Assembly (NCBI GenBank): GCA_000002445.1
Contig: CP000069.1
Location: forward strand, 1,248,001-1,312,000
DNA from: Trypanosoma brucei
Taxonomy: Eukaryota
Direction of reading: 5' to 3'
Length of the DNA: 64,000 nt
Of this stretch, positions 30,168 through 37,580 are shown in pieces. The position numbers and the translations under genes are program-made. The notes under the pieces were generated by a model. The model worked only from the letters and a program-made list of their open reading frames with translations. It did not search any database and was not told the DNA's origin. The first letter of the stretch is position 1; the number at the start of each line of letters is the position of its first letter.

Positions 30168-31025
30168 GTTTCCACCTTCTACCAACGGCAGCAGGGACAC
30201 TAACACTGAAAAGAAATAACACCAATGTTATAGCACACTGTGCAGAAGCCTACAGAAACGATATGCGAAACCTGCAGTATCTACACTTGAGCAACCACAA
30301 GATCCTAACAAAGCAGAGGAAAGCGGAATAAACAATGAACAAAAATGAAGGAGTATATAACAAACGCTAAAAATTTTTAAATTCAAACAGCAAACAAAAC
30401 AGAACCCTGTACAGCAACCTTTCAAAAGCTAAAAATACTACAAACACACAGAGGTATACAACGAAAAATATGCAACTTCGTATCCTCCCGAACATAGGGG
30501 TCACAGTGCAGTCCAGAAGAAAAAAAGTGTCATAACCATTTCAACGAAAAAACGAAAATATACCCACCCAATCCGGAACAAAGAACTACAAAAATATGAT
30601 ATTTTTATTTTACAAAAGGCCAAACCGACCACGCTAACGTACAAAAAGACGCCTCTAAACATCCTAAATAAGTGTTTATTATCCAAATATTTCCCGAAAG
30701 ACGCGGTGCGCTATTGATTCTTAGCAGCAACCCCAACCACAAATATGCAAATCCCACCACAGTTACAACAAGTACTGAAACGTTCACATAAAGTATAATA
30801 AAATTGTGATGTGGTGAAAGCAGACAACCGGTCGCCAGATATAATAACTTATCCCCCACAACAGCACCTACACTGACGCTTATATATAATAACCCTCGTG
30901 CAGGAGGGAACGAAAGGAGGTGTAGGTGATCAAATAAATAAAACCAATAACGACAGCAACAGTTAATATTGAATAGCATTGAGTCAGGACCAGTAGTACA
31001 CAGAACGGCAAACATATGCATATGC

Positions 31026-31047
31026 ATATATATATATATATATATAT
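31026..31047. repeat. (TA)11 microsatellite flanked by catatgcatatg
   Basis: Sequence atatatatatatatatatatat. Confidence 0.9.
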
Positions 31048-32054
31048 CTTTAAAAAACATAGTAAACATTGCCATTCGGTGACACAAACCGTGATCCCGC
31101 TTCTGCCCCTCAATCGCAAACCCACCATCCGTCAAATTCAGCTAAATCCACACAGGTACACAGACACAGGGAACGAAAAGAGCAATTCAAGTGGAGGACC
31201 CTCGGATGTAAGGTCCAACCGACTCATCTTCCGCCCACCCGCTACCACATCACACTCACCACTATGCCAGCACTCCTCCCCAACAACTTTAATGCAAGCC
31301 TGAAAGAAGCGCAGCTGTGGAGCACGGCAGGCAGGACCCCTCAGCAGTGGCCGACAACAACAACCACCACCACCGCATTTTAAGAACTTCAGGATATAGA
31401 ATCCCGAGGGAAATACCGTCGTACGCTGTTTGGTTCATGAGAAAATCGAAGTTCCCGACTCACGGTCACATTCACGGAGGCGAAGAAATCATCAATCGAA
31501 GGTCGGCCCAGGCACTGCCCGCTACCGGGAATACGAAGCAGCAAACAGGGGAGCCACATACAAAGGAAACAGGTGTCATAAACGGGTGACGTCTCAGGCC
31601 GCCGCCGACCCTGGCAACAGCATGGCAAACCCAACCGCGCGGCCAAGGAAACTTTTTTCCGCTGACGGGCAGAACGCCTGCAGTGGAGAAAGGGCGTATA
31701 AGCGAGACGAAGAGGTAGCTCCACAAATAGCGGAAGGGTGCGGACAATGTGAACGAATTAATACGAGCGGGCCGCCTGCCGCGCTACAGCGAAATCCATC
31801 CCTAGAACAGGCGAATTTACTCCTTCGCTACGGGACGCGGAGACCCCAGACTTGGAGGGTGTGGGTGAGTAAAGTTGATGGAAATATAATGAAACCCCTT
31901 AGTGGGAGGAGGATAAGGGCTAAGCATGGTAAAATCTCCAAGGAGTAGGGTCATGGAGGCCGTAGTTTGCCTTTGGAAGAGGAGAATAACCGGGAATTTG
32001 TGGTATCCAGACCAACCCACCAACACGGCTGGTCCCAGTGGTCGCAGCGGGCTG

Positions 32055-32066
32055 CCCCCCCCCCCC
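32055..32066 (-). promoter_or_regulatory. C12 on plus (G12 on the leftward-transcribed strand); candidate directional element of the leftward pol II start region
   Basis: Exact run of 12 C in gctgccccccccccccgtgg. G-runs on the transcribed strand are the recurrent motif reported at trypanosome divergent strand-switch regions (Siegel et al. 2009; Kolev et al. 2010). Confidence 0.5.
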
Positions 32067-32104
32067 GTGGAAATTAAAAAGCATCGGGGCGGAGGCTCTT
32101 GTGG

Positions 32105-32128
32105 AAACCCTCTAGACAAAGAGGGTTT
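32105..32128. other. Perfect 9-bp stem / 6-nt loop hairpin (aaaccctct-agacaa-agagggttt) inside a GC-rich island
   Basis: Exact inverted repeat read from the sequence. Confidence 0.6.
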
Positions 32129-34623
32129 AAACACCCGAGCACTCCATAAATGGAAATAGCGGGAGGCAACCGAGGGGGTGTTCAGCGTGCAGGGGAAACA
32201 CATACTGCAAAAAACTCGAGCGGCTGAATGTCAGTGGGCTTGGACGCCGGCCAAAGCCATCAGCTGCGCTCTACAGAATGGAAGACTGTCGGAGAAGTCG
32301 AATGCCAGCACCGTTCGTGGGTTACGCGTGCATTATATGTGGTAGATGGCAACGGTGGTATCCGGGCACTCAGGCAATGTTCCGCCGATCCACTCATCAC
32401 ACCACGGAGGGGGAATTTCTAACCCCACAGGAGAGTACGCATGATGATTGCCAATGCAGTGTCAGAAGCCACTGCACTGTCATGGAGAGTGCAAGTGGCT
32501 TCCGCTTTGGACTTCCATTGTTCACCATGGCGATGAACTCGCTGAACCGACTACTGGAAGAAGGACCCCAGTTACGTGCCGATTTGTTTACACATAACTG
32601 AACGCTGCTGCTTCCTCAAACGAAAGAGAAAAATATCAAACACACACTGCGGAGGTAAGTGGACATGGTGGCACCATGGTCTTGAGAGTACCTAATGGAA
32701 GTTTACCTAACGCAGATGAAAAGCACACCCTTCGGTTCTGTGAAATGAATACCGCTCACACCAAACGGTGATGGAGCGTGGGTAGGGCTTGAGAGAACTT
32801 TAAAAGTTGCTCTTTGTGATACTCCATTGCATAATTGAAATGGCAAGGCGCGCTATGCAGACAATACGAAAAAAATTGACCTGAGTCTACTTCAAATAGG
32901 AGCAATATCTACTTTCACGCAGGGCTAAGCACACCAGCTTCTGCGGTTCTTTTACCTCGCACTGGCGCGAGCGTGTGTCATGTGAAGGGTTGAAGCGTCG
33001 TAATAGGATGTGTGTAAGGGTAGTGGAGGGGAACCCGCTGTTGCACACTGAAAATTTAGCTGTATCATTTCAGGCGTGACATAGCGAATGTACTAAGAGA
33101 GCACCGTCCCTGAAGGTAGCGGCTTACAGCTCAGAAGCGCCACATTAATACGTAGTCCCAAGTCCGTGTTGATGTGAGAAGTGAAAGTCTCAGTGAAGTG
33201 CAATGCCGAGGAAGAGTGTTTCCGAATCTTCATGTCCAAGACCACGAGGAGACACATTACACGATTTCACCAATCCCTTTGTGTCAAGTGGCGTAAGCCC
33301 CCAGTTACTTTCCTCACACTTCGATACCGCAACAGGGCTCTCTTTCGCAATTAAATAAGGCTCATACGCGCGGAAGATCACAAAGATATAAAAATGAAAG
33401 CGAGGGTGGGCAGATTGCACAACGCTTCAGTGGAAACGGTGTACAATTACCGCCTGGTAGATGCCACGGGCCATGGACTGAGGGATCTGCATTATTGGGG
33501 AAAAAAAGAATGGGACAGCTACGACAACATTGGGGGGAAACAAACTGATATTCGTGGAGCGGGCAAATGCAGCCCCATCGCCACGCAGTAACCTAACCGA
33601 ATCCCTGACAATAGAAAAGGGTGCGGGAATGTCACTGGATGTTTTCCAAGCGTATACAACGTCATCGAGAAAACTCCGGATATCGTCGATGGCGTGCTCG
33701 CACGTGTCCGGGACTGAGAAGTCAAAAACGGTGTCCCAGAAAAACGCGACCGGCCCCGACGCTATGAGAAGCCGGAGCTGGAGCAAAGCAGAGTTCCCCA
33801 TGAAAGGAACGCTGCTGACTATTGGCTTCCTCTGAAAATAGGGGGTACTGGACCCTGGCACCACGTTGAGGTGGCCGGCGTCACCCCTGAGCAGACTCTT
33901 GACAATCACAGACTTGCTGTTGCCACTCATGGTATTGGAAGCAGGTCCATCTCACCGTGGCAGACCAACACCCAAATAAGCTACGGGTGCTTCTCCTACA
34001 AATACGGGAGGGAAAGCGTATACCACATTGAAGTTTGTATTTAGTCGTTGATGTGGAATGGAATGGGATGATTGATGGTATGGTGGAAAGGGTGACTGAC
34101 ATGCCGCAGTTGCCTGACCCGAAGCTTCAGGACATTGTAACCTACATGGGACCGATATTGCTGTCAGGGGAAAAGCGAGCGAAGAAGAGGTGGCAGTGGC
34201 TCGTTCCCGCCCCGTTGCCTCTCGGCATTGAAAATGGATGCTGCGAAATATTAACCCGCGAGCACCACTACAGTGCCTGAAATGAAAAGTACAAAGCTCG
34301 GCTTACAAAGCGTCGAACTCCAACAATCCGTGCGACCACTGCGACAGCGAAAAACAGTATGACACACACTGGTGATGCAATGAGACGGCGTGAGCACAAA
34401 GCCCATGGCTAGCGCCGGTCGAATGCAGTAACGCAAATGGTAAACAAACATGAATATTGCCGCGCGGATACGCCGTGAATATCAAGGTGCGGCGACACAC
34501 TGTACCTTCACGTATTTCCCGTGATCCTCTTCCAACTGCGAACTCACAGCTAGGAGTGCGGTGTGCGCCGGAATGTGTTTAAGCAAGGAGACTGCTCGGG
34601 GAGACGCCGCAGAGCGCATCACA

Positions 34624-36579: not shown

Positions 36580-36580
<1 letters not shown>

Positions 36581-36621
<41 letters not shown>
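36581..36621 (+). promoter_or_regulatory. (GT)n microsatellite (~20 units); candidate GT-rich RNA pol II promoter element for the rightward array
   Basis: gtgagtgtgtgt...gtgtgtgg is uninterrupted GT. It lies about 200 bp upstream of the plus-strand G12 and about 1 kb upstream of the first rightward gene. GT-rich promoters driving pol II initiation in T. brucei are established (Wedel et al. 2017). Confidence 0.5.
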
Positions 36622-36622
<1 letters not shown>

Positions 36623-36817
36623 AAGGGAGATGTGACCAAACACTGTTGATTGTGTTGCTACTTTCGCTGCGTTTCATATTTCAATGGTATGCTTAATTAC
36701 AGCACATTATCAATATCATTTAAAAAATCGCTTCATATATATCTATATGAACTTGTTGATATATTCGTGCGTTCGTTCGTGTATGCGATGAGGTTGAAAA
36801 AAAAAAAGTGCACCGCC

Positions 36818-36829
36818 GGGGGGGGGGGG
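36818..36829 (+). promoter_or_regulatory. G12 on plus; candidate directional element of the rightward pol II start region
   Basis: Exact run of 12 G in caccgccggggggggggggaatcgg. It mirrors the C12 at 32055-32066 in the opposite orientation. Confidence 0.5.
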
Positions 36830-37580
36830 AATCGGCCACGGTACCCCTTTCGCGTGACGTTCCGAAGTTTCAGTCACTGATGTTAGTGAGACGGCCGGTT
36901 ATTTAATGCACCGACCAGGCTGATGCATTAAATGGACCCCAAAATTATTTGTTGGTGGGTGCTTTTCTGATCGGGACGTGAGATGTGTGATGAAATTTCT
37001 TTGGTCTACCATCGTTGTTTTATCTGCTGCGCTGGCACGTGGTGGGTAAAGTTAATTGACTGGCATTTGGAATTCAGGACACCTGAAGTGTATTTGTTTT
37101 GGGATTATAGCCTAACTGTCACTGTTGACTCATATATAGTGCATTGTTGTGTGGTGCCTCCATGTCAGGGTTCTTCTCCATGGATGGTAGCGTTTTTTTG
37201 TGTTTATATTGTTTGCGTTCACCTGTTGATATTTTGTTGGATGATCTAACTGCGTGTTTAAGGGGGAAAACATTAGCATGTTTTCTCCATCTTGCGATCC
37301 CTTTCAGCGATTTGATTGATGCTAATTATGTATGATGACAAAAGATGGTGAGGAAAAGAAAAACTTTTGGTTTGTGATTGTTCCTGCGCTACTACCCCTG
37401 TGGTCGAACGTGTTGCTTTTATTTATTAATCGCTATCTTTTGTTGAAGAAACTCGTGGCTGTATGCGGTTGCATCTGGAAGGGTGCCGAATTGCGTATAC
37501 TTCACTGCTAGAAACATTTCCCGGGGAAGGTTACCGCATGCGTACTTCTAACCAGCCTTTTTTTCCCTGCTGTTGATGTG

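What the first reader, a model, noticed from the sequence alone, without database searches (positions are those of the whole stretch)
30207..37580. Divergent strand-switch region with mirror-image G12 tracts and a (GT)20 tract: textbook bidirectional pol II start architecture
Coding polarity flips here. The only homopolymer runs of 12 in the window are C12 at 32055-32066 (G12 on the leftward strand) and G12 at 36818-36829 (rightward strand). Each has G on the strand transcribed away from the centre, and they bracket a 4.75-kb core. About 200 bp upstream of the rightward G12 is an uninterrupted (GT)~20 (36581-36621). A shorter (GT)8 lies at 34624-34639. G-runs at divergent strand-switch regions and GT-rich promoter elements are the sequence correlates reported for T. 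brucei pol II initiation and H2A.Z deposition.
Basis: partly seen in the sequence, partly recalled or inferred. Interest (0 to 1): 0.6.

Follow-up and report, generated by a model that had tools for sequence, protein, structure and literature searches.

The report
Known trypanosome divergent transcription start region
This stretch is the already-published divergent RNA polymerase II start region between genes Tb927.6.4580 and Tb927.6.4590 on Trypanosoma brucei chromosome 6; its G-runs and GT-repeat are the textbook sequence signature of such regions, so the finding is correct in outline but ordinary.

Summary
The window is T. brucei TREU927 chromosome 6, 1,248,001-1,312,000. Coding polarity flips between Tb927.6.4580 (29883-30167, -) and glutamyl-tRNA synthetase Tb927.6.4590 (37581-39404, +). 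C12, G12, the GT-repeat and (GT)8 sit where stated.

Three details are wrong:
- A12 (four times), T12 and A15 also occur, so these are not the only 12-runs.
- The GT tract is (GT)18 perfect, 23 units imperfect.
- The 12/12 symmetry is accidental. Other T. brucei strains have C9 and G10-G14.

Kolev 2010 (Table S14) already lists both flanking gene clusters as 'Divergent' pol II units. Wedel 2017 already ranks G10 and GTGTGTGTGG-type 10-mers as the top sense-strand-biased words at start regions.

The 'tracts bracket a 4.75-kb core' picture fails on the right. The published spliced transcript Tb6.NT.74 (34986-37427, +) contains both (GT)18 and G12. Rightward transcription therefore starts more than 1.6 kb upstream of them. 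The gap with no mature RNA is 31898-34985.

That gap holds a 1.97-kb repeat shared with a chromosome 10 divergent region. It includes a relic of the ingi/RIME retroposon 5' end (Pr77-type), pointing left.

Verdict: real, already known, low interest.

The parts
29883..30167 (-). Tb927.6.4580 (94 aa), first annotated gene of the leftward polycistron
   Evidence: ORF. A 94-aa gene is called at the same place in DAL972 and T. b. equiperdum. Kolev Table S14 names it the first ORF of a 'Divergent' unit.
30400..31897 (-). Tb6.NT.73, a published low-abundance spliced and polyadenylated transcript (0.15 RNA/cell). It coincides with the leftward GT-rich block at 30251-31750.
   Evidence: Kolev Table S7 coordinates 1279897->1278400 minus the offset 1,248,000. 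A poly-pyrimidine tract and AG lie directly before the 5' end. Keto skew is -0.13 to -0.35 on the plus strand.
32055..32066 (-). G12 on the leftward strand (C12 on +), 158 bp upstream of the first leftward splice acceptor
   Evidence: It is C9 in two other strains.
31898..34985 (.). Central gap with no published mature transcript. Its composition is nearly neutral between the strands.
   Evidence: No Tb6.NT entry lies between NT.73 and NT.74 in Kolev Table S7. Keto skew is about 0. No tRNA and no Rfam family.
32533..34505 (.). 1.97-kb dispersed repeat, 94.7% identical to a segment in the middle of a chromosome 10 divergent strand-switch region, in the opposite orientation
   Evidence: blastn and junction views show sharp edges. 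Divergence is mosaic, from 0.2% at 32600-33199 to 11% at 33400-33899.
33813..33889 (-). Pr77-type 5' hallmark of an ingi/RIME-clade retroposon (relic), pointing left. A CGTG (DPE) motif lies at 33865-33862. Homology continues to about 33688.
   Evidence: 62/77 identity to an ingi 5' end, a 33-nt exact core match and the alignment. The protein trail runs through an RHS-inserted copy and the ingi 2A/endonuclease N-terminus. No endonuclease or reverse transcriptase remnant lies downstream.
33427..33930 (-). 167-aa ORF annotated as a hypothetical protein in T. b. equiperdum; judged not to be a gene
   Evidence: Substitutions against the chromosome 10 copy fall 20:11:14 by codon position, and there is a 2-bp indel. 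It overlaps the retroposon relic. No Pfam hit.
34624..34639 (+). (GT)8 followed by TTGGGGGAG, about 350 bp upstream of the first rightward splice acceptor
34986..37427 (+). Tb6.NT.74, a published low-abundance spliced and polyadenylated transcript (0.21 RNA/cell). Its 3' two-thirds (35501-37500) form the rightward GT-rich block.
   Evidence: Kolev Table S7 coordinates 1282986->1285427. AG lies at 34984-34985. Keto skew is +0.09 to +0.32.
36576..36621 (+). GT microsatellite: (GT)18 perfect at 36585-36620, 23 imperfect units overall; inside Tb6.NT.74
   Evidence: It has 10-16 units in other strains.
36797..36829 (+). A11, a 10-nt spacer, then G12 (36818-36829); inside Tb6.NT.74, 752 bp upstream of the GluRS ATG
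   Evidence: The G run is G10-G14 in other strains.
37581..39404 (+). Tb927.6.4590, glutamyl-tRNA synthetase, first annotated gene of the rightward polycistron
   Evidence: Exact protein match to XP_845576. Pfam tRNA-synt_1c. Gene name confirmed. Listed in Kolev Table S14.

Best explanation
The interval is the divergent strand-switch region between Tb927.6.4580 and Tb927.6.4590 on T. brucei chromosome 6. It is a pair of back-to-back, broad ('dispersed') RNA polymerase II start regions feeding two long polycistrons.

Shown:
- The polarity flips here.
- The region is listed in the literature as a divergent start.
- Two outward-facing GT-rich blocks exist (30.25-31.75 kb on the minus strand, 35.5-37.5 kb on the plus strand). 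Each coincides with a rare spliced 'leader' transcript, Tb6.NT.73 and Tb6.NT.74.
- These blocks flank a compositionally neutral gap of about 3.1 kb (31898-34985).

Inferred from Wedel 2017 and from general knowledge of these regions: initiation is scattered around the inner edges of those blocks. Specialised chromatin (H2A.Z/H2B.V, acetylated H4) makes it possible. Sense-strand G/T-rich sequence, including oligo-G and (GT)n, gives it direction.

On this view the tracts are members of that GT-rich signature. They are not a symmetric pair of core promoters. The left G12 lies just upstream of the first left splice site. The right G12 and (GT)18 lie well inside already-transcribed sequence and could at most add secondary starts or shape nucleosomes there.
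For: - Identity and coordinates. With offset 1,248,000, 5 of 5 Kolev novel transcripts in the window have AG just before their 5' end.
- Published status: Kolev Table S14 lists both units as 'Divergent', and the text says 5'-triphosphate reads were enriched at every divergent unit.
- Published signature: Wedel Dataset EV1 and the Wedel text on directionality and on initiation at the 5' end of H2A.Z peaks.
- Here, Wedel 10-mers lie on the minus strand up to 32637 and on the plus strand from about 33.5-34.6 kb. The skew profile agrees.
- Both G10+ tracts are far beyond chance, and both lie in the 7.4-kb region.
- The strand switch itself is ancient. The same gene order (141-aa and 95-aa genes, then GluRS) occurs in T. 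melophagium and L. mexicana. T. melophagium shows mirrored keto skew of -0.39 to +0.47.
Against: - No start-site or chromatin read data could be examined here. The exact initiation points are not known from this work.
- Tb6.NT.74 begins 1.8 kb upstream of the right G12, so that tract cannot be the first rightward start.
- Tract lengths vary between strains.
- The tracts are missing from the orthologous T. melophagium region. They are therefore not required for an SSR at this position.
- Long G/C runs also occur in both orientations between genes inside polycistrons at another locus, L004.
Confidence: 0.85

Rival explanations
1. The G12 and (GT)n tracts are passive by-products. They would be slippage-prone simple repeats that accumulate in gene-free DNA. 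Their strand orientation would merely reflect the transcription-linked G/T-over-C/A mutational skew. They mark the region but do not drive initiation.
For: - Length is polymorphic between very close strains: C9-C12, G10-G14, (GT)10-18.
- The tracts are absent from the 740-bp orthologous region of T. melophagium, which still separates the same genes.
- L. mexicana has only one G10, at a different relative position.
- Runs of 5-7 nt show no strand bias here.
- G13 and C13 occur in both orientations inside polycistrons in L004.
- The right-hand tracts are transcribed through.
Against: - Wedel 2017 found G10 132 times on the sense strand against 17 on the antisense strand in the 5' fifth of 199 start regions.
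- The same study showed that synthetic promoters built from such 10-mers drive directional reporter expression and H2A.Z deposition.
Confidence: 0.35
2. The right G12/(GT)18 cluster is the main start for the GluRS polycistron after all. On this view Tb6.NT.74 comes from weak upstream initiation or from antisense firing of the leftward promoter, and it is spliced opportunistically at 34986.
For: - Tb6.NT.74 is about 50-fold rarer than GluRS mRNA (0.21 against 10.4 RNA/cell).
- Kolev reports sense plus antisense 5'-triphosphate reads at all start regions.
- The strongest plus-strand GT skew lies at 36.0-37.25 kb.
Against: - Steady-state abundance reflects RNA stability, not transcription rate.
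- A polyadenylation site at 37427 downstream of the tracts shows that polymerase arriving from upstream runs through them.
- No start-site data were available to place a peak at 36.6-36.8 kb.
Confidence: 0.25
3. The retroposon relic in the core supplies a focused start. Its Pr77-type 5' hallmark (33889->33813, minus strand) would act as an internal pol II promoter and contribute to, or seed, leftward transcription.
For: - 62/77 identity to ingi Pr77, a 33-nt exact core match, and the essential CGTG element in the correct register.
- Pr77 of L1Tc drives pol II transcription. The motif is conserved in ingi, RIME and DIRE, and such elements accumulate in strand-switch regions.
- The relic points toward the left polycistron, 1.8 kb upstream of the left G12.
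- Related relics at two other loci also point toward a downstream polycistron.
Against: - Promoter activity has been shown for the T. cruzi L1Tc Pr77, not for this diverged copy. The first 8 nt and positions 48-56 differ.
- No transcript is recorded between 33889 and 31897.
- T. melophagium and L. mexicana lack any such motif at the orthologous region, so it is not needed for the ancestral function.
- In a divergent core either orientation points at some polycistron, so the orientation argument is weak.
Confidence: 0.1

Closest known systems
T. brucei divergent strand-switch region / pol II transcription start region (Siegel 2009, recalled from memory; Kolev 2010; Wedel 2017)
   Same: - Divergent polycistrons.
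- No tRNA or snRNA genes.
- Sense-strand G/T skew, oligo-G and GT-type 10-mers on the outward strands.
- Rare spliced transcripts between start and first gene.
- This very locus is listed as 'Divergent' in Kolev Table S14.
   Different: Nothing categorical.
- At 7.4 kb it is at least ten times wider than its T. melophagium orthologue.
- The right-hand G12/(GT)18 lie inside a mature transcript rather than at the upstream edge.
Synthetic 'GT-rich promoter' elements of Wedel 2017 (GT_210_nt, GT_416_nt)
   Same: They are built from the same words found here: G10, CGGGGGGGGG, GTGTGTGTGG and TGTGTGTGGA. They are directional and act on the sense strand.
   Different: - Those are artificial concatenations of many enriched 10-mers. 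Here the words occur as two isolated simple repeats within broader GT-rich blocks of 1.5-2 kb.
- 'GT-rich' in that paper means runs of G or T in general, not specifically a (GT)n microsatellite.
Pr77 hallmark of L1Tc/ingi-clade non-LTR retroposons (Heras 2007; Macias 2016)
   Same: The first ~200 nt are homologous to the ingi/RIME 5' end. There is a 33-nt exact core match and CGTG at +25 to +28. The location in a strand-switch region fits the reported preference of such elements.
   Different: - Only the 5' ~200 nt are recognisable.
- There is no 2A peptide, endonuclease or reverse transcriptase remnant, no poly(A) tail and no target-site duplication.
- It is embedded in a larger 1.97-kb duplicated segment that extends about 600 bp upstream of the element's own 5' end.

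Membership tests
T. brucei divergent pol II transcription start region | Two gene clusters transcribed away from each other | tested here: met
   ORFs are on the minus strand up to 30206 and on the plus strand from 37578. Gene calls in two other strains agree. GC and keto skew invert inside the interval.
T. brucei divergent pol II transcription start region | Enrichment of 5'-triphosphate (primary) RNA ends | tested here: met
   Tested only through the published summary. Kolev 2010 Table S14 lists Tb927.6.4580 and Tb927.6.4590 as first ORFs of 'Divergent' units, and the text says the enrichment was seen at every divergent unit. The raw read positions could not be examined.
T. brucei divergent pol II transcription start region | H2A.Z/H2B.V, H4K10ac and BDF3 enrichment | not testable with these tools
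   No ChIP-seq tracks were available. Supplements searched for coordinates held none for this locus.
T. brucei divergent pol II transcription start region | Sense-strand bias of G/T-rich 10-mers, strongest at the 5' end | tested here: met
   The Wedel EV1 10-mers switch from the minus strand (last at 32637) to the plus strand (from 33.5-34.6 kb). Outward GT-rich blocks appear.
T. brucei divergent pol II transcription start region | Not explained by a pol I or pol III gene (rRNA, tRNA, snRNA, SL RNA) at the boundary | tested here: met
   No tRNA. No Rfam family at gathering score or at E<=1, apart from one chance hit.
Sequence-specific 75-bp pol II promoter (Cordon-Obras 2022) | Presence of the published promoter motifs under a pol II ChIP peak | not tested
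   The paper is not held in the library. Only a secondary mention was available, and the motif sequences are unknown to me.
Pr77-bearing ingi/RIME/DIRE retroposon | Conserved 77-nt 5' hallmark with CGTG at +25 to +28 | tested here: met
   62/77 identity, a 33-nt exact core match, and CGTG at 33865-33862 on the minus strand.
Pr77-bearing ingi/RIME/DIRE retroposon | Downstream ingi-type coding remnants (2A, AP endonuclease, RT) or a RIME 3' half with poly(A) and target-site duplication | tested here: not met
   tblastx and blastn against an ingi 5' region match only about the first 200 nt. Three-frame Pfam scan is empty. No tail or duplication at the repeat edges. It is therefore a relic, not an intact family member.
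Pr77-bearing ingi/RIME/DIRE retroposon | Promoter or HDV-like ribozyme activity | not testable with these tools
   No Rfam ribozyme hit. Fold z-score is -0.5. Activity needs an experiment.
G-quadruplex-forming element | Four G3+ tracts with loops of 1-7 nt | tested here: not met
   No canonical motif on either strand anywhere in 30-38 kb. The only one in the window is at 5876-5896 on the minus strand.

The most novel reading that the evidence does not exclude
The 1.97-kb repeat in the transcript-free core, with its Pr77-type retroposon 5' hallmark, may be a reusable start-region module rather than junk. It is shared with a chromosome 10 divergent region, and its left ~660 bp (32538-33199) are kept about 99.5-99.8% identical between chromosomes. 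The proposal is that it has spread or been homogenised among T. brucei transcription start regions and contributes a focused pol II start or a chromatin boundary.
Probability: 0.08. Interest if true: 0.55.

Novelty: already known. Interest (0 to 1): 0.15.

Why it matters
As a discovery it matters little. This exact region is in a 2010 table of pol II start regions, and the G-run/GT signature was quantified in 2017.

Its use is as a worked example. From sequence alone the strand switch can be placed correctly, but not the start sites. Published splice-site data show that the eye-catching right-hand tracts are transcribed through.

The only part not traceable to the literature I could read is the shared repeat with a retroposon promoter relic in the core. 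That touches a standing suggestion that retroelement Pr77 sequences influence polycistron initiation, and it would be cheap to test genome-wide.

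Tried and rejected
- tRNA and Rfam scans of the window and, at E<=1, of the region found nothing apart from one chance hit.
- Pfam on all region ORFs, and on three-frame translations of the core's minus strand, found nothing.
- The 167-aa ORF at 33427-33930 was considered as a gene that would move the switch point. It was rejected: no third-position bias, a frameshift in the paralogue, and overlap with the retroposon relic.
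- G-quadruplex reading rejected. No canonical motif is present.
- Structured-RNA reading of the near-identical 660 bp and of the Pr77 relic rejected. The z-scores are -0.55, -0.81 and -0.51.
- An HMMER search of 1.84 billion representatives with the chromosome 10 ORF added only one weak hit.
- Cordon-Obras 2022 and Siegel 2009 are not held.
- Supplements of Staneva 2021 and of the HDV-ribozyme paper held no entry for this locus.
- The Tiengwe 2012 supplements gave no origin list.
- My recollection that the chromosome 10 deacetylase gene is Tb10.70.6220, the first ORF of a listed divergent unit, could not be confirmed. The divergent layout of that locus rests on its gene calls alone.

Full report
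**Identity and coordinates**

Two proteins encoded in the window match T. brucei brucei TREU927 chromosome 6 entries exactly. They are glutamyl-tRNA synthetase XP_845576 and the mitoribosomal protein ms56, XP_845573. Papers name the synthetase Tb927.6.4590.

Kolev 2010 gives poly(A) sites and 3'UTR lengths for Tb927.6.4590 and Tb927.6.4570. These fix the window as Tb927_06_v4 1,248,001-1,312,000.

As a check, all five of Kolev's novel transcripts that fall in the window have an AG dinucleotide immediately before their 5' end at this offset. A pyrimidine-rich stretch is visible upstream of most of them.

The genes flanking the finding are:
- Tb927.6.4570 (29156-29581, -)
- Tb927.6.4580 (29883-30167, -)
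- Tb927.6.4590 (37581-39404, +)

**The observation**

C12 (32055-32066), G12 (36818-36829), (GT)8 (34624-34639) and a long GT tract ending 197 bp before G12 are all present. G10 words occur 6 times against 0.10 expected in dinucleotide-preserving shuffles. (GT)8 words occur 12 times against 0 expected.

ORF polarity, GC skew and keto (G+T) skew all invert inside the interval.

Three details are wrong:
- The window also has four A12, one T12 and one A15.
- The GT tract is (GT)18 perfect, or 23 imperfect units.
- The equal length of the two G tracts is an accident of this strain. T. b. gambiense has C9/G14/(GT)10, T. b. equiperdum has C9/G10/(GT)11, and T. equiperdum has G14/(GT)16.

Runs of 5-7 G or C show no coding-strand bias in the window.

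**What is already published about this locus**

Kolev 2010 Table S14 lists 'Tb927.6.4580 -> Tb927.6.3410, -, Divergent' and 'Tb927.6.4590 -> Tb927.6.5200, +, Divergent' among putative pol II transcription units. The text states that 5'-triphosphate reads were enriched at every divergent unit, in both sense and antisense.

Wedel 2017 reports that initiation occurs at the 5' end of H2A.Z-enriched regions with a 4:1 sense bias. Synthetic promoters made of sense-enriched 10-mers drive directional transcription and H2A.Z deposition. Their Dataset EV1 ranks these words by sense:antisense count in the first fifth of 199 start regions:
- GGGGGGGGGG, 132:17
- GTGTGTGTGG, 18:1
- GGTGTGTGTG, 15:0
- CGGGGGGGGG, 13:1

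All of these words occur here on the outward strands. The whole list switches from the minus strand (last hit 32637) to the plus strand (from 33.5-34.6 kb).

Kolev Table S7 records two rare trans-spliced, polyadenylated transcripts inside the region:
- Tb6.NT.73 = window 31897->30400 (-), 0.15 RNA/cell
- Tb6.NT.74 = window 34986->37427 (+), 0.21 RNA/cell

The left G12 is 158 bp upstream of the first leftward splice acceptor. That fits a position at or near the start.

The right G12 and (GT)18 lie 1.6-1.8 kb downstream of the first rightward acceptor, inside Tb6.NT.74. Polymerase must therefore already be transcribing rightward upstream of 34986. The GT tract that precedes the first acceptor is the short (GT)8, about 350 bp upstream.

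The stretch free of mature RNA is 31898-34985 (3.1 kb), not the 4.75 kb between the tracts.

Fine-scale composition shows two outward GT-rich blocks. They lie at 30251-31750 on the minus strand and 35501-37500 on the plus strand. They overlap the two rare transcripts and flank a neutral centre. The architecture is thus two broad GT-rich leader zones, not two point-like mirror elements.

**Comparison with other species**

The same strand switch exists in T. melophagium and in Leishmania mexicana, with the 141-aa and 95-aa genes leftward and GluRS, helicase and ankyrin genes rightward. It therefore predates the Trypanosoma/Leishmania split.

In T. melophagium the region is only 740 bp. It has no G run of 6 or more and no (GT) run of 5 or more, but its keto skew is sharply mirrored (-0.39, +0.16, +0.47). 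L. mexicana has 3.8 kb with one G10 near the left edge on the plus strand.

Strand-asymmetric composition is therefore the conserved property. The long simple repeats are lineage-specific and unstable. T. vivax and T. grayi contigs end just upstream of GluRS.

**The core**

The 167-aa ORF at 33427-33930 (-) is annotated only in T. b. equiperdum. It led to paralogous 'unlikely' ORFs on other chromosomes.

Window 32533-34505 is 94.7% identical, with sharp edges, to a segment of T. b. gambiense chromosome 10. That segment also lies in the middle of a divergent strand-switch region, in the opposite orientation.

Divergence is mosaic: 0.2% over 32600-33199, 11% over 33400-33899 and 4% over 33900-34399. 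This suggests gene conversion or uneven constraint.

The ORF is not coding. Substitutions fall 20:11:14 by codon position, and the paralogue has a 2-bp indel.

A further search tied part of the ORF (33709-33885) to three sequences:
- the tail of a truncated RHS protein, right after its P-loop
- Tb11.01.0560
- an ORF that continues into a DVEENPGP 2A peptide, which I recognise as the ingi N-terminus

Alignment with an ingi 5' end shows that window 33889->33688 (-) is the first ~200 nt of an ingi/RIME-type retroposon. Identity is 62/77 in the Pr77 hallmark, with a 33-nt exact core match and the CGTG element in register.

Nothing ingi-like follows. There are no endonuclease or reverse transcriptase remnants, no tail and no target-site duplication.

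The literature states that Pr77 is an internal pol II promoter in L1Tc and is conserved in ingi/RIME/DIRE. It also states that such elements accumulate in strand-switch regions, and that an influence on polycistron initiation has been proposed.

A weaker copy lies in a 10.7-kb gene-free gap upstream of an M1 aminopeptidase on chromosome 11. The gene is probably Tb11.02.1070, the first ORF of an 'Internal' unit in Kolev's table.

No Rfam family, Pfam family or unusual RNA folding is associated with the repeat.

**Mechanism**

The best-supported account is the established one. Initiation is broad and chromatin-defined at two back-to-back start regions. Direction is biased by sense-strand G/T-rich sequence, of which the tracts are conspicuous but dispensable members.

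Three rivals remain open because I could not inspect read-level data:
- The tracts are neutral by-products of slippage and skew.
- The right tract cluster is the dominant start despite Tb6.NT.74.
- The Pr77 relic contributes a focused leftward start.

**Verdict**

The feature is real and correctly classified in outline, but it is already known. The specific 'mirror-image tracts bracket the core' model is not supported on the right-hand side. Interest is low. The shared core repeat with a retroposon promoter relic is the only element worth a follow-up genome-wide count.

Noticed in passing
window 32533-34505; L004 9603-11567: A 1.97-kb segment in the transcript-free core is 94.7% identical to the centre of a T. 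b. gambiense chromosome 10 divergent strand-switch region. The edges are sharp and the orientation is opposite. Divergence is mosaic, from 0.2% at 32600-33199 to 11% at 33400-33899. Its copy number in the genome is unknown.
   Followed up: partly
window 33688-33889 (minus strand): Relic of an ingi/RIME retroposon 5' end. It has the Pr77 hallmark (62/77 identity, 33-nt exact core match, CGTG at 33865-33862) and points toward the left polycistron. No coding remnants follow.
   Followed up: yes
window 33427-33930 (minus strand): This 167-aa ORF is annotated as a hypothetical protein in T. b. equiperdum (DPX39_060049900). Its codon-position substitution pattern is non-coding and it overlaps the retroposon relic, so it is probably a spurious gene model.
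   Followed up: yes
L001 1-2452 (T. equiperdum contig CZPT02000598.1): The contig starts at the equivalent of window 34381, inside the repeat. It also has a 20-N gap directly before the G14 tract. T. vivax and T. grayi contigs likewise end 1.2 kb and 0.2 kb upstream of GluRS. Assemblies tend to break in this region.
   Followed up: no
L007 9261-10000; L009 6166-10000: The orthologous strand-switch region is 740 bp in T. melophagium and 3.8 kb in L. mexicana, against 7.4 kb in T. brucei. The T. brucei version has expanded, partly through the repeat.
   Followed up: partly
L004 8001-8132, 3539-3551, 6412-6424: The chromosome 10 strand-switch region carries (AC)66, which is (GT)66 on the leftward sense strand, about 300 bp upstream of its first leftward gene. 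C13 and G13 runs lie between genes inside that leftward polycistron in both orientations.
   Followed up: no
window 29156-29581 and 29883-30167 (minus strand): Two small genes, Tb927.6.4570 (141 aa) and Tb927.6.4580 (94 aa), have no Pfam domain. They are conserved in size and order as far as Leishmania. Tb927.6.4570 is reported as up-regulated in stumpy forms.
   Followed up: no
window 36797-36829 and 31026-31047: An A11 run lies 10 nt upstream of the rightward G12. An (AT)11 microsatellite lies inside Tb6.NT.73.
   Followed up: no
L003 10001-11941 against window 37581-39404: T. b. equiperdum annotates GluRS with a 39-aa N-terminal extension (646 against 607 aa). The extension would begin about 37 nt downstream of the poly(A) site of Tb6.NT.74, so it is probably an over-extended gene model.
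   Followed up: no
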